This document shows, piece after piece, positions 28,507-31,608 of a stretch of 64,000 nt of DNA (position 1 is the first letter of the stretch; every line of letters starts with the position of its first letter). The translations under genes were made by a program, and so were the position numbers. The notes under the pieces were generated by a model. It was not told where the DNA came from. It worked only from the letters and a program-made list of their open reading frames with translations, and searched no databases. The DNA is taken from the NCBI GenBank assembly GCA_025465155.1, contig JAODNJ010000403.1:367-64366 (forward strand), read 5' to 3'. The stretch is from Frankiales bacterium. Lineage in GTDB: Bacteria; Actinomycetota; Actinomycetes; Mycobacteriales; Geodermatophilaceae.

Positions 28507-28766
28507 GTGCCCGGTCACGGAGCAGGGCCGGCCAAGCGGTCTGACCGCTTGGCGCCCCCGTCTGACCCTGCCCCGCCCCTCCCCGCCCCGGCATGGAGCG
28601 GGATCTTCCGGGCTGCACGCTGAAGGGCCTGTTCTCCGGCTCTCCAGCGCTTCGCACATCTGCTCTGACGCACGTCCACGCCATCCGGTTCGGGGCTGAT
28701 AGCCCGATTTTCGGCGGATCCGACACCCGGGGTTGCCAGGCCCAAGACCCGGGTACCGGCCGGGAC

Positions 28767-30107
28767 ATGTCCCCACAGACGACGCACATACTGGTTGTCG
28801 GCGCCGGCACCGTCGGGATGCCGCTCGTCCGGAGGCTGCAGCGAAGGCTCCGACGTGAGCTGAAGCGCGGCGACGTGGAGATCACGGTGGTCGACCCCCA
28901 GTCCTACATGACCTACCAGCCGTTCCTGCCCGAGGCGGCGGCCGGCAACCTGGAGCCCCGGCACGTCGTCACCCCGCTGCGGCCGGTGCTCGACCGGGCC
29001 AGGATCCTCAACGGCAGGGTCGTCAAAGTGGATCACGCCGCGCGGCGCGCGACCGTCCGGGTCGCCGGCGCCGAGCCGCGCGAGGAGGGCGACCGGGACA
29101 TCTCCTATGACGTGCTGGTGCTGGCGGCCGGCTCGATCTCGAGCACGCTCCCGATCCCGGGGCTGGCGGAGAACGGGATCGGCTTCAAGACCATCGGGGA
29201 GGCCATCTACCTGCGCAACCACGTGCTCGGGCAGCTCGACATCGCCGACTCCACCGATGATGAGGAGTCCCGCCGGCGCGCACTGACCTTCGTCTTCGTG
29301 GGCGGTGGCTTCGCGGGCGTGGAGGCACTGGCCGAGCTCGAGGACATGGCGCATGACGCCTGCCGCTACTACCCGCGTATCGACCCCGGTGACATGCGGT
29401 GGGTCCTCGTCGAGGCGACCGGACGCATCCTGCCCGAGGTCGGTGAGGACATGGGCAGGTGGACCGTCGAGGCCCTGCGCAAGAGAGGCATCGAGGTCCG
29501 GCTCGAGACGAAGCTGAAGTCGGCCGAGAACTGTCACATCGTCCTGAGCTCGGGTGATGGCTTCGATGCCGGCACGCTCGTATGGACGGCCGGCGTCAAG
29601 CCGCACCCGGTGGTCCGCAGCACCGACCTGCCCCTGGACGAGAAGGGCCGGGTCAAGGCGACCGCGGAGCTGACTGTGGAGGGGACGCAGCGGGCCTTCA
29701 CCGCCGGGGACAACGCCGCTGTGCCCGACCTCACCAATCCCGGCTCCTACTGCGCCCCGAACGCCCAGCACGCCGTCCGGCAGGCCACGCGCCTGGCCGA
29801 CAACATCGTGGCCGAACTGCGTGGCAAGCCGCTCCGGCCGTACAGGCACGCCTACGTGGGGTCGGTCGCGAGCCTGGGCCTGCACAGGGGTGTGGCGCAG
29901 ATCTACGGTGTCAAACTGCGGGGTGTGCCGGCCTGGCTTGTGCACCGTACCTACCATCTTTCCCGGATGCCTACGCTCAACCGAAAAGTACGCGTGCTCG
30001 CCGACTGGACGCTCGCGCTGTTCTTCCGCCGGGAGATCGTCTCGCTGGGCGAGCTGCAGCGGCCGCGTGAGGAGTTCGATCTGGCGGTGGGCCGGCGTCC
30101 GGACTAG
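28767..30107 (+). CDS. NAD(P)/FAD-dependent oxidoreductase, type II NADH dehydrogenase-like
   Basis: VVGAGTVG, YQPFLPE, YDVLVLAAGS, FVGGGFAGVE, WTAG, AGD, PNAQHA.RQ, HRTYHL; syntenic with the Streptomyces gene between ppx and bldA. Confidence 0.9.
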   Translation: MSPQTTHILVVGAGTVGMPLVRRLQRRLRRELKRGDVEITVVDPQSYMTYQPFLPEAAAGNLEPRHVVTPLRPVLDRARILNGRVVKVDHAARRATVRVAGAEPREEGDRDISYDVLVLAAGSISSTLPIPGLAENGIGFKTIGEAIYLRNHVLGQLDIADSTDDEESRRRALTFVFVGGGFAGVEALAELEDMAHDACRYYPRIDPGDMRWVLVEATGRILPEVGEDMGRWTVEALRKRGIEVRLETKLKSAENCHIVLSSGDGFDAGTLVWTAGVKPHPVVRSTDLPLDEKGRVKATAELTVEGTQRAFTAGDNAAVPDLTNPGSYCAPNAQHAVRQATRLADNIVAELRGKPLRPYRHAYVGSVASLGLHRGVAQIYGVKLRGVPAWLVHRTYHLSRMPTLNRKVRVLADWTLALFFRREIVSLGELQRPREEFDLAVGRRPD

Positions 30108-30594
30108 CCGGGCCCGCCGGAAGGAAGGCATAGCCCTATGCAGGATGTGCGGCCTCTCGGCTCGCCCCGCTGCTGACCCGGAGCGGACGCGCTCGGCCTG
30201 GCCCCATATGGCTGCTTTACCTGGCGGCTTCCGCGCTGGCATGCGAGAGCGGACGCATGGGTGTTCACGACGTGCGCGCCATCCGTCGTGATCGCGAAGG
30301 CGGCGCGGGTGAAACCTTGGTCGAGGACAGGGCTGCCCGCGGTCAGCGAGTCGGCGCTTTCGTCACGCGGGTTTCGGGCATTGGTCAACAAACGCTTACC
30401 CTGCGCGGTGGCGGTAGGGTAGGGAGACCCAGTCAGCCTGCTGACCTGCGTGTTCGTCCGTCCGGCCAGCGCGGTTTTGACAGTTTTCGGGGGAATAACG
30501 GTCGGGCTCCGCTGACGTTTTTCTTCCCGGCTTGGTCAATAGTGAATGGAATCCGATTCGATTTCCATAGGGCATGCTATTCGTGTGCCGACGG

Positions 30595-30600
30595 TATGAT
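30595..30600 (+). promoter_or_regulatory. Candidate -10 element for the tRNA
   Basis: TATGAT ends 6 nt before the tRNA 5' end; no clear -35. Confidence 0.45.
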
Positions 30601-30606
30601 TGCGGC

Positions 30607-30680
30607 GCCCCCGTAGCCCAACGGCAGAGGCAGGCCCCCTCAAAGGGCCAAAGGTGTCGGTTCGAGTCCGACCGGGGGCA
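30607..30680 (+). tRNA. 74-nt tRNA on the short-arm tRNA-Leu(UAA) scaffold but with anticodon TCA (UCA, opal-reading) and C33
   Basis: Acceptor GCCCCCG/CGGGGGC with A73. D-arm GCC..GGC with GG. Anticodon stem GGCCC/GGGCC closes the loop CCTCAAA (30638-30644). 6-nt variable region AAAGGT; T-arm GTCGG-TTCGAGT-CCGAC; CCA not encoded. Confidence 0.9.
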
Positions 30681-30775: not shown

Positions 30776-31567
30776 ATGGAGAGCAGGAACCCCGCGTTCT
30801 CCCGGCGTGGTGCCTTCGGGCAGCAGCAGGCGCCGGGGCACGTCCCGACCCCACAGCAGTTGCAGGGCATGTACGACGCGCCCTCCTACGCCCCGCCGGC
30901 GACCCGCCGGATGACCGTGGACGACGTGGTCGTCCGCGGGTTCCTGATGCTGGGCACGCTGGTCGCGACCGGAGCCGTCGCCTGGGTGCTGAACCCCCCG
31001 CCCATCGTCGCGATCGTCTCCCTGATCGTCGGCCTGGTGTGCTGGGCGATCATGACCTTCGGCCACCGGGTCAACGCGCCGCTGGCCCTGGGCTTCGCGG
31101 CCGCCTACGGCGTGTCGGTCGGCATCGTCAGCCATGCCTACAACCAGTTCTACAACGGCGTGGTCCTCCAGGCCGTGGTGGGCACCGCGCTCGCCTTCGC
31201 CGCGATGCTTGCGGTGCACGCCCTGAAAATCATCCGGGTCACCCCGAAGCTCGTGCGCTATGTCGTTGCGGCCGGTTTCGCGCTGCTCGGGCTGATGCTG
31301 GTCAATGTGCTGTTCCAGGTGTTCGGTGTCGCCGGTGGCATCGGGATCCGTGACCCCGGCAGCCCCATCGCCTATGTCTTCAGCGTCGTCGCGATCCTGG
31401 TCGGCTGTTTCTTCCTGCTGCTCGACTTCGCCGCGGTGGAGGAGGGCGTGGCCGCGGGCGCGCCGGAGAAATTCGCTTGGTACTGCGCGTTCGGCCTGAC
31501 CCTGAGCCTGGTGTGGATCTATCTTGAAATGCTGCGCTTCCTGTCGTACTTCTCCGGCAGGGACTGA
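30776..31567 (+). CDS. Bax inhibitor-1/YccA-family membrane protein
   Basis: MESRNPAFSR, MTVDDVV, about 7 TMs, LLLDF, LSLVWIYLEMLRFL; GGAGG RBS. Confidence 0.9.
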   Translation: MESRNPAFSRRGAFGQQQAPGHVPTPQQLQGMYDAPSYAPPATRRMTVDDVVVRGFLMLGTLVATGAVAWVLNPPPIVAIVSLIVGLVCWAIMTFGHRVNAPLALGFAAAYGVSVGIVSHAYNQFYNGVVLQAVVGTALAFAAMLAVHALKIIRVTPKLVRYVVAAGFALLGLMLVNVLFQVFGVAGGIGIRDPGSPIAYVFSVVAILVGCFFLLLDFAAVEEGVAAGAPEKFAWYCAFGLTLSLVWIYLEMLRFLSYFSGRD

Positions 31568-31608
31568 GTCGGGCAGGCGACCGGAGCCCGTAGCGACGCT
31601 CCGTGGTC

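What the first reader, a model, noticed from the sequence alone, without database searches (positions are those of the whole stretch)
30607..30680. bldA/leuX-position tRNA converted to a UCA (opal-decoding) anticodon with C33
Seen: a well-paired 74-nt cloverleaf whose perfect anticodon stem encloses CCTCAAA, giving C32-C33-U34-C35-A36-A37-A38. Shifting the register to read CAA destroys the stem. Known: the tRNA after eno-divIC-DUF501-ppx(-ndh) and before BI-1/thiolase/cbs is tRNA-Leu(UAA) (bldA in Streptomyces, leuX in mycobacteria), whose loop would be CTTAAAA-like. Bacterial LeuRS largely ignores the anticodon and relies on A73 and tertiary features such as A15:U48, both retained here (30680; 30621:30655). 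U33 is near-universal. Inference: two substitutions turned the UUA reader into a Leu-chargeable UGA suppressor, weakened by C33. That would give low-level regulated UGA readthrough and make the strain a natural bldA-like mutant for TTA genes. Alternatives: a non-decoding regulatory tRNA, a pseudogene, or sequence error.
Basis: partly seen in the sequence, partly recalled or inferred. Interest (0 to 1): 0.9.

Follow-up and report, generated by a model that had tools for sequence, protein, structure and literature searches.

The report
Leucine tRNA with one-off anticodon change
This is the soil actinomycete's normal short-armed leucine tRNA for the rare UUA codon, and in this one contig alone a single base turns its anticodon into a stop-codon (UGA) reader, so it is a one-off mutant allele or a base-call error and not an evolved recoding system.

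Summary
Window 30607-30680 (+) is a real 74-nt tRNA (Rfam tRNA 49.3 bits; ARAGORN) with anticodon loop CCUCAAA, i.e. anticodon UCA and C33.

The gene is the positional orthologue of the UUA-reading tRNA-Leu. In this lineage, and across much of Actinomycetota, that tRNA is a type I (short variable loop) tRNA-Leu, a kind already described in Streptomyces coelicolor (Fan 2019).

C33 is native. The loop CCUAAAA occurs in all near-identical contigs and in Actinomadura and Nocardiopsis. So one substitution (A35>C at 30641) separates the window from its relatives, not two.

That C is private to this contig:
- Four other assemblies of the same population (99.1-99.9% identical) read A.
- None of 128 family members has UCA.
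- In-register scans of 241 M metagenome records and of IMG/VR found no clean UCA copy.

In my estimate it is a real rare allele with probability about 0.5: a bldA39-like loss of UUA reading that is probably still Leu-charged, hence an incidental UGA suppressor. It is a consensus error with probability about 0.35. An evolved, regulated readthrough device is unlikely, below 0.1. Interest is modest.

The parts
30607..30680 (+). tRNA gene: type I (short variable loop) tRNA-Leu body, 74 nt, A73, CCA not encoded (followed by CGC)
   Evidence: ARAGORN. Rfam RF00005 at 49.3 bits. Fold. Identical to L001-L004 apart from one base. Member of a 130-sequence family whose stems covary.
30640..30642 (+). Anticodon TCA; relatives have TAA
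30641..30641 (+). The single base private to this contig: C here, A in L001, L002 (= run X1), L003 and run X2. This is tRNA position 35.
   Evidence: No public run holds the two indexed 31-mers that span the C.
30639..30639 (+). C33, the native state of this lineage's tRNA-Leu(UAA) and not a new mutation
   Evidence: Loop CCTAAAA in L001-L005, L008, L011, L014, L015, L017, L038, L099.
30650..30655 (+). Six-nt variable loop AAAGGT ending in U48
   Evidence: Parse. Fan 2019 reports that at least 5 nt including nt 48 are needed for leucylation.
30560..30606 (+). Conserved upstream region with a -10-like TATGAT at 30595-30600, 6 nt before the mature 5' end; probably the gene's own promoter (inferred)
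   Evidence: CGGTATGATTGCG is invariant in the window and L001-L005 although the flanks diverge. The strict sigma-70 consensus scan found no hit.
30501..30516 (+). Terminator-like hairpin plus T run between ndh and the tRNA
   Evidence: a consensus match only.
28593..30107 (+). Upstream neighbour: NDH-2 type NADH dehydrogenase (synteny marker)
   Evidence: Pfam Pyr_redox_2 / NDH2_C. Synteny.
30776..31567 (+). Downstream neighbour: Bax inhibitor-1/YccA family membrane protein (synteny marker)
   Evidence: Pfam BaxI_1, 3.5e-68. Homologues. Synteny.

Best explanation
Identity (shown; about 0.97 confidence). The gene is the single-copy orthologue, at the conserved eno-ppx-ndh / BaxI-thiolase position, of the UUA-reading tRNA-Leu. 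In this uncultured Streptosporangiales lineage that tRNA is a type I tRNA-Leu: 74 nt, a 6-nt variable loop, a tRNA-Leu-type D arm, A73, and a native C33 in the loop CCUAAAA.

What is unusual (shown). This contig alone has A35>C, which makes the anticodon UCA.

Most likely reading (inferred; about 0.5). The C is a real, recent, rare allele in a polymorphic soil population. It is the natural counterpart of the classical S. coelicolor bldA39 mutant, which also changes anticodon position 35 (UAA>UGA).

Consequences if real (inferred):
1. The cell loses its dedicated UUA reader.
2. Bacterial LeuRS does not use the anticodon, and this family is charged with UAA, CAA and UAG anticodons on the same body. 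The mutant tRNA is therefore probably still leucylated.
3. It keeps A36-A37-A38, the context for i6A37-type modification, so it could read UGA and insert Leu at a low level in competition with RF2. If U34 carries an xm5U-type modification it might also misread UGG.

This would be an incidental by-product of a point mutation and probably mildly harmful. It is not an evolved or regulated decoding device.
For: - The cloverleaf is real.
- Contigs from three other samples that encode the identical BaxI carry the identical tRNA and flanks, with TAA. L002 differs from the window over 3.2 kb by this base and one G-run indel only. That indel is shared with run X2, so it is a real polymorphism. 30641 is therefore the only site private to the window.
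- Singleton SNPs are common among these strains, so a real private SNP is plausible.
- Gene content looks intact: 44 high-GC3 ORFs cover 54 of 64 kb. BaxI, thiolase and the GDSL lipase have the same lengths as in the relatives. This argues against a generally error-ridden assembly.
- Family: 130 sequences share the D arm. Anticodons are UAA 98, CAA 15, UAG 15; A73 in 129 of 130; the last variable-loop base is U in 91 of 95 distinct sequences.
- In the three stems that could vary (acceptor, anticodon, T; the D arm was fixed by the search pattern) every pair position is paired in at least 92 of 95 distinct sequences, and most show several pair types.
- Synteny holds in 85 loci.
- Type I tRNA-Leu is leucylated by an actinomycete LeuRS. 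It needs at least 5 variable-loop nt including nt 48, and U8-A14; a CAA body given a UAA anticodon complements a bldA mutant (PMC6614811).
- bldA39 is UAA>UGA (PMC11836424).
- The D-arm architecture matches E. coli leuZ.
Against: - No independent sequence supports the C. Four other assemblies of the population read A, and no indexed public run holds the C-spanning 31-mers.
- Raw reads of the source sample could not be examined, so a consensus error or other artefact is nearly as likely.
- The window has in-frame TTA codons in ordinary genes (class A PBP, DUF58, NlpC/P60), and 26 of 44 ORFs end in TGA. Such an allele should therefore be selected against.
- Charging, expression and readthrough were not tested.
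- A35 is common to all Leu anticodons, so its irrelevance to this LeuRS is inferred from other bacteria and has not been shown.
Confidence: 0.5

Rival explanations
1. Artefact. The organism has the normal UAA anticodon, and the C at 30641 is a consensus, base-call or assembly error, or some other corruption of this one record.
For: - It is a singleton. L001, L002/X1, L003 and X2 all read A.
- No run holds the C-spanning words.
- There is no UCA member among 128 relatives or in the metagenome and viral scans.
- The site lies in a hairpin between C and A/G runs, and coverage of this population is low (about 11-13x in X1 and X2).
- A harmful change is a priori less likely to be the majority base in a sample.
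Against: - The contig otherwise looks clean, with intact genes at the same lengths as in relatives.
- The only other apparently private difference (31571 +G) turned out to be a real polymorphism.
- From my own knowledge, short-read consensus substitution errors are rarer than the strain SNPs seen here.
Confidence: 0.35
2. One reading: an evolved, maintained, Leu-charged opal suppressor that gives regulated low-level UGA readthrough and makes the strain a natural bldA-like mutant.
For: - The UCA anticodon sits in a 7-nt loop with A37 and A38.
- The body belongs to a family that is charged whatever its Leu anticodon (PMC6614811).
- The upstream promoter-like region is intact.
Against: - There is no conservation. 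The nearest strain (99.94% identical) and all other relatives have UAA.
- No second example exists in 120 genome loci, 241 M metagenome records or IMG/VR.
- C33 is ancestral, not part of a conversion.
- TGA is the commonest stop, in 26 of 44 ORFs, with no sign of avoidance.
- TTA codons are still present in ordinary genes.
Confidence: 0.07
3. A real allele that is charged by another synthetase, or not charged at all. C35 is the main ArgRS determinant and C35-A36 are part of the TrpRS set. The product might therefore be an Arg or Trp inserter, an uncharged or non-decoding tRNA, or a gene on its way to becoming a pseudogene.
For: - The new C35 creates part of the Arg and Trp anticodon identity sets (established identity rules for E. 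coli ArgRS and TrpRS; my own knowledge).
- The acceptor GCCCCCG...A73 resembles actinobacterial tRNA-Arg acceptors (from memory; not tested).
Against: - The D loop AACGGCAG is that of tRNA-Leu, with no clear A20, and position 36 is A rather than G or U, so it fits ArgRS poorly.
- The discriminator is A73, not the G73 that bacterial TrpRS needs.
- The rest of the gene is identical to working relatives, so there is no decay.
Confidence: 0.05
4. A selenocysteine tRNA (ARAGORN's label).
For: Only the anticodon UCA.
Against: - It is 74 nt with a 7/5 acceptor/T helix, a 6-nt variable loop, a 3-4 bp D stem and A73.
- The hit at gathering score is the general tRNA model; no tRNA-Sec hit was listed.
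- Relatives have Leu anticodons.
Confidence: 0.01

Closest known systems
Type I (short variable loop) tRNA-Leu of Streptomyces coelicolor, tRNALeu(CAA) (Fan et al. 2019, NAR 47:6369, PMC6614811)
   Same: A class-I-sized tRNA with a Leu-family body: U8-A14, A73 and a short variable loop of at least 5 nt ending in nt 48. It is found in an actinomycete that has a single bacterial-type LeuRS. The D arm found here is shared by UAA, CAA and UAG isoacceptors in 128 genomes.
   Different: Here the type I body carries the UAA isoacceptor function; in S. coelicolor the UAA tRNA, bldA, is type II. The variable loop has 6 nt rather than 5. Position 33 is C. In this contig the anticodon is UCA.
bldA of Streptomyces and its classical mutant bldA39 (Lawlor 1987; Stone et al. 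2025, PMC11836424)
   Same: The only dedicated reader of the rare UUA codon in a high-GC actinomycete. bldA39 is likewise a single substitution at anticodon position 35 (UAA>UGA) that abolishes UUA reading and leaves the rest of the tRNA intact.
   Different: bldA is a type II tRNA with a 17-nt variable arm. bldA39 produces a sense (Ser) anticodon, not a stop-codon reader. Outside the Streptomycineae a developmental role for TTA codons is doubtful (PMC4255298). Whether Streptomyces bldA sits at the same chromosomal position was not tested here.
Classical suppressor tRNAs that arise by anticodon point mutation, such as E. coli tRNA-Leu amber suppressors and tRNA-Trp opal suppressors (my own knowledge)
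   Same: One base change in the anticodon of an otherwise normal elongator tRNA. The synthetase (LeuRS) ignores the anticodon, so the amino-acid identity is kept. Suppression is partial and competes with the release factor.
   Different: Those were selected in the laboratory and shown to work. This one comes from a single wild metagenome contig, is untested, and has C33 where U33 is nearly universal.
UGA-decoding tRNAs of reassigned genetic codes (tRNA-Trp(UCA) of Mollicutes, tRNA-Gly(UCA) of Gracilibacteria/SR1) and tRNA-Sec
   Same: The anticodon UCA.
   Different: Those are fixed across a lineage, sit on cognate Trp, Gly or Sec bodies, and go with loss of UGA as a stop. Here 26 of 44 ORFs end in TGA, the body is tRNA-Leu, and the allele is a singleton.

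Membership tests
Type I tRNA-Leu (Fan et al. 2019) | Short variable loop of at least 5 nt that includes nt 48 | tested here: met
   The variable loop is AAAGGT, 6 nt, with U as its last base. The requirement is taken from PMC6614811 section 14.
Type I tRNA-Leu (Fan et al. 2019) | U8-A14 tertiary pair and a tRNA-Leu-type D arm (3-bp stem, 13.22 mismatch, AAYGGYAG loop) | tested here: met
   T8 and A14 are present. The D arm GTAGCCCAAYGGYAGAGGCA is shared by 128 tRNAs that all have Leu anticodons. It has the same architecture as E. coli leuZ.
Type I tRNA-Leu (Fan et al. 2019) | A leucine anticodon (NAA or NAG) | tested here: not met
   The window has TCA. All 128 other clean family members have TAA, CAA or TAG; the irregular L135 also reads as a CAA type. 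The window copy differs from L001-L004 by this base alone.
Type I tRNA-Leu (Fan et al. 2019) | Leucylated by the cognate LeuRS | not testable with these tools
   This needs in vitro charging or an acid-urea northern blot.
bldA (Streptomyces UUA-reading tRNA) | UAA anticodon | tested here: not met
   UCA in the window; UAA in the four other assemblies of the same population.
bldA (Streptomyces UUA-reading tRNA) | Type II body with a long (17-nt) variable arm, as in S. coelicolor | tested here: not met
   74 nt with a 6-nt variable loop. The S. coelicolor structure is as given in PMC6614811.
bldA (Streptomyces UUA-reading tRNA) | Conserved chromosomal position (after eno-divIC-DUF501-ppx-ndh, before BaxI-thiolase-cbs) | tested here: inconclusive
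   Met for 85 UAA-tRNA loci across Actinomycetota. No Streptomyces locus could be fetched, so equivalence with bldA's own position was not checked.
bldA (Streptomyces UUA-reading tRNA) | Dispensable for growth, with a developmental or secondary-metabolism role through TTA codons | not testable with these tools
   The only indication is that 5 TTA codons occur in 17,996 codons of the window, some in ordinary genes.
tRNA-Sec | 13-bp acceptor plus T helix (8/5 in bacteria), long variable arm, 6-bp D stem, G73 | tested here: not met
   7/5 helices, 6-nt variable loop, 3-4 bp D stem, A73. The gathering-score hit is the general tRNA model and no tRNA-Sec hit was listed.
Functional opal suppressor tRNA | UCA anticodon in a 7-nt loop with a purine at position 37 | tested here: met
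   The loop is CCUCAAA between perfect 5-bp stems.
Functional opal suppressor tRNA | U33 (U-turn) | tested here: not met
   C33 at 30639. This is also the wild-type state of the UAA tRNA in this lineage, in Actinomadura and in Nocardiopsis, so it need not abolish decoding.
Functional opal suppressor tRNA | Demonstrated readthrough, or recurrence or conservation of the allele | tested here: not met
   No other UCA copy was found in 120 genome loci, 241 M metagenome records or IMG/VR. Readthrough itself cannot be tested here.
UGA sense-codon reassignment (genetic codes 4 and 25) | UGA not used as a stop; in-frame UGA within genes | tested here: not met
   26 of 44 high-GC3 ORFs end at TGA, and coding density under the standard code is normal.

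The most novel reading that the evidence does not exclude
A wild soil Streptosporangiales strain really carries a UCA allele as its only UUA-reader gene. That allele is expressed, leucylated and decodes UGA despite its native C33. The strain would then be a naturally occurring bldA-null that also shows genome-wide low-level Leu readthrough of its commonest stop codon. This would give a natural system for studying how a high-GC actinomycete tolerates opal suppression and how a C33 elongator tRNA decodes.
Probability: 0.22. Interest if true: 0.55.

Novelty: new member of a known kind. Interest (0 to 1): 0.3.

Why it matters
If the C is real, this is a rare look at a spontaneous suppressor and bldA-null allele segregating in nature, in an organism where UGA ends most genes.

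The work also corrects an easy annotation trap. A 74-nt actinobacterial tRNA with a Leu-type or near-Leu anticodon is a genuine type I tRNA-Leu. It is not tRNA-Sec, not a pseudogene and not a remodelled long-armed tRNA.

More useful than the singleton itself are two by-products. First, the UUA reader is type I at one conserved locus across most of Actinomycetota. Second, several genera use C33 in this elongator tRNA. Both bear on LeuRS-tRNA co-evolution and on how strictly U33 is required.

Tried and rejected
- Exact-protein look-up of the window thiolase found nothing.
- The RNA-run search found only same-study metatranscriptomes with 0.00 share of the query words, so there is no expression evidence.
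A wider comparison between the window and run X1 was therefore not possible.
- No run holds the 31-mers that span 30641-C. Only two such words were indexed, and the source run may not be served.
- The strict sigma-70 scan found no promoter. The TATGAT box rests on conservation only.
- A literature search for the gene neighbours of Streptomyces bldA found nothing. A search for C33 in bacterial elongator tRNAs found nothing specific.
- A register shift that would read CAA was considered and rejected because it breaks the stem.
- tRNA-Sec was rejected on structure.
- A phage or mobile-element origin was rejected because synteny is phylum-wide.
- A graph tangle with other tRNA-Leu genes as the source of the C was rejected, because the CAA isoacceptors share only the hexamer CTCAAA and not the flanking stem k-mers.
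- I did not build a covariance model. The D arm of all collected members was fixed by the search pattern, so the test would have been circular.

Full report
**1. Observation**

Window 30607-30680 (+) is a genuine tRNA gene.
- ARAGORN finds it as the only tRNA in the 64 kb, with anticodon tca. It labels it SeC from the anticodon alone.
- Rfam's general tRNA model matches it end to end at 49.3 bits, E = 1.5e-07.
- The free-energy fold gives the acceptor, anticodon and T helices.

The anticodon stem GGCCC/GGGCC is perfect and encloses CCUCAAA: C33 = 30639, U34 = 30640, C35 = 30641, A36 = 30642.

**2. Organism**

The BaxI protein just downstream has its best named relatives in Streptosporangiales. 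These are 72% to a Streptosporangiaceae MAG and about 69% to Actinomadura and Spirillospora; the 82-87% hits are all unnamed soil-metagenome proteins. The window therefore comes from an uncultured soil Streptosporangiales lineage with about 70% G+C.

**3. What the tRNA is**

Three other contigs from different samples encode the identical BaxI protein: L001 (JGI 3300053229), L002 (SRR13312976) and L003 (JGI 3300064033). All three carry the same tRNA and flanks, but with anticodon TAA and loop CCTAAAA.
- Relatives with 84% and 77% BaxI identity (L004, L005) have the same loop.
- Actinomadura viridis also has CCTAAAA. Streptosporangium roseum has CTTAAAA.
- The anticodon and T stems show compensatory changes among these sequences.

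So C33 is native to the lineage and only one base, 30641, distinguishes the window.

The tRNA is only 74 nt long with a 6-nt variable loop, so it is not a canonical long-armed bacterial tRNA-Leu. Together with the earlier loci this gives 130 sequences:
- Anticodons: UAA 98, CAA 15, UAG 15, plus the window's UCA and one irregular sequence (L135). All regular anticodons other than the window's are leucine anticodons.
- A73 in 129 of 130.
- Variable loop of 5-6 nt; its last base is U in 91 of 95 distinct sequences.
- In the acceptor, anticodon and T stems every pair position is paired in at least 92 of 95 distinct sequences, and most show several pair types. The D arm was fixed by the search pattern and could not be tested.

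The D arm has the same architecture as E. coli leuZ: a 3-bp stem, a 13.22 mismatch and an AAYGGYAG-type loop. The short tRNA simply lacks about 10 nt of variable arm.

The literature already describes this kind. Fan et al. 2019 (PMC6614811) showed the following for S. coelicolor:
- It has a type I tRNALeu(CAA) beside its type II tRNA-Leu species, and one LeuRS charges both.
- U8-A14, C74 and a variable loop of at least 5 nt including nt 48 matter for charging; A73 does not.
- They cite earlier work that the CAA body given a UAA anticodon can replace bldA.

**4. Position**

Proteins of the window were compared by tblastn with all collected loci.
- In 85 loci across Actinomycetota the UAA member of the family lies downstream of eno, ppx, UDG or ndh and/or upstream of BaxI or thiolase. 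The taxa include Microbacterium, Arthrobacter, Nocardiopsis, Nonomuraea, Streptosporangium, Nanopelagicales, Geodermatophilaceae and Dermatophilaceae.
- No CAA or UAG locus shows this neighbourhood.

The window tRNA is therefore the orthologue of the phylum's UUA-reading tRNA-Leu.

**5. How solid the C at 30641 is**

Against L001, L002 and L003, the window has two private differences in the 2.8 kb shared by all four: 30641 (C against A) and an extra G at 31571.
- Run X2, from the same study as X1, carries the extra G, so that difference is a real polymorphism. X2 still reads A at 30641.
- Logan contigs of X1 and X2 both read A.
- No indexed run holds the 31-mers that span the C.
- An in-register search for UCA in this tRNA body across 241 M metagenome records gave six hits, none of them a UCA tRNA. 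Four have no tRNA. One (L132) has only unrelated tRNA-Cys and tRNA-Arg genes kilobases from the match. L135 is a CAA-type gene with an extra base.
- IMG/VR gave one phage tRNA with an irregular 8-nt loop.

The allele is thus a singleton.

The contig otherwise looks clean. It has 44 high-GC3 ORFs covering 54 of 64 kb, and neighbouring genes have the same lengths as in the relatives. Singleton SNPs are common among these strains. A private real SNP and a consensus error are therefore both credible. I put them at about 0.5 and 0.35.

**6. Mechanism if the allele is real (inferred)**

- The change is at the same anticodon position as the classical bldA39 mutation, UAA>UGA (PMC11836424). It abolishes UUA reading.
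- Bacterial LeuRS does not contact the anticodon (my own knowledge, from E. coli and T. thermophilus structures and from Leu amber suppressors). This family is used with three different anticodons on one body. The UCA tRNA should therefore still be leucylated.
- A36-A37-A38 is kept, so A37 hypermodification should persist.
- The result would be a weak Leu-inserting UGA suppressor. It might also misread UGG if U34 is xm5-modified.
- In this organism 26 of 44 ORFs end in TGA. TTA codons occur 5 times in 17,996 codons, including in a class A PBP, a DUF58 protein and an NlpC/P60 protein. This agrees with the view that outside the Streptomycineae TTA is not confined to dispensable genes (PMC4255298).

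Such an allele should be mildly to clearly harmful, which fits its being a singleton. Nothing suggests regulation or adaptation.

**7. Rivals**

- Artefact, about 0.35 (see section 5).
- Evolved suppressor, about 0.07. Conservation is absent, C33 is ancestral, and TGA stops are not avoided.
- Charging by ArgRS or TrpRS through the new C35, or no charging at all, about 0.05. The body lacks the other Arg and Trp determinants.
- tRNA-Sec, about 0.01. It is refuted by structure.

**8. Verdict**

The cloverleaf and the UCA anticodon are really in the sequence. The gene is an ordinary member of a known kind, the type I tRNA-Leu, here the UUA reader at its conserved locus, with a one-off change at anticodon position 35.

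It should not be described as a converted opal-decoding tRNA until the source reads confirm the base. Interest in the finding itself is modest (0.3).

The side observations may be of more lasting value. The type I UUA reader is phylum-wide, and C33 is the wild-type state in several genera.

Noticed in passing
L011-L130 (genome-contig hits) and window 30607-30680: The UUA-reading tRNA-Leu is a type I (73-75 nt, 5-6 nt variable loop) tRNA at one conserved locus (eno..ppx..UDG..ndh | tRNA | BaxI..thiolase). This holds across much of Actinomycetota: Microbacterium, Arthrobacter, Nocardioides relatives, Pseudonocardia, Nocardiopsis, Nonomuraea, Streptosporangium, Nanopelagicales and Rubrobacteraceae. 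The same D arm also occurs in some Chloroflexota, Planctomycetota, Dormiibacterota and Eisenbacteria. The published case (S. coelicolor) has type I only for CAA and a type II bldA.
   Followed up: partly
window 30639; L001-L005, L008, L011, L014, L015, L017, L038, L099 (UAA); L033, L081 (UAG): C33 replaces the near-universal U33 as the wild-type state of an elongator tRNA-Leu. It is seen in this lineage, Actinomadura and Nocardiopsis/Allonocardiopsis (loop CCUAAAA), and in two Pseudonocardia tRNA-Leu(UAG) genes (CCUAGGA, CCUAGAA). The surrounding stems covary, so these are working genes. I found no paper on this.
   Followed up: partly
L135:1178-1254 (+): A soil-metagenome type I tRNA-Leu(CAA)-like gene with an extra base near the top of the anticodon arm. 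ARAGORN reads a 4-nt anticodon 'caaa'. It is either an oddity or a sequencing error.
   Followed up: no
L138:635-711 (-), IMG/VR UViG 3300028845_000073: A phage contig carries an array of 8 tRNA genes. One has the type I tRNA-Leu D arm but an irregular anticodon arm: a 4-bp stem and an 8-nt loop UCUCAAAC. ARAGORN labels it '???'.
   Followed up: no
window 30205-30225: Strain L001 has 73 extra bases after window position 30205 and lacks 30223-30225. This is an indel polymorphism just downstream of the ndh ORF, between strains that are 99% identical.
   Followed up: no
window 31571: A G-run length polymorphism (GGG against GG) 4 nt after the BaxI stop codon. It is shared by the window and run X2 but absent from L001-L003. 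Together with mosaic SNP patterns, this points to recombination among co-occurring strains.
   Followed up: partly
window 30560-30606: The upstream sequence CGGTATGATTGCG, with a TATGAT box ending 6 nt before the mature 5' end, is invariant down to relatives with 77% BaxI identity while neighbouring bases diverge. It is a likely promoter that would give an almost leaderless precursor.
   Followed up: no
L006:3000-7000 (Streptosporangiaceae MAG DASTYC01): This relative (BaxI 72% identical) has no tRNA next to BaxI and a different upstream neighbourhood, so the locus has been rearranged there.
   Followed up: partly
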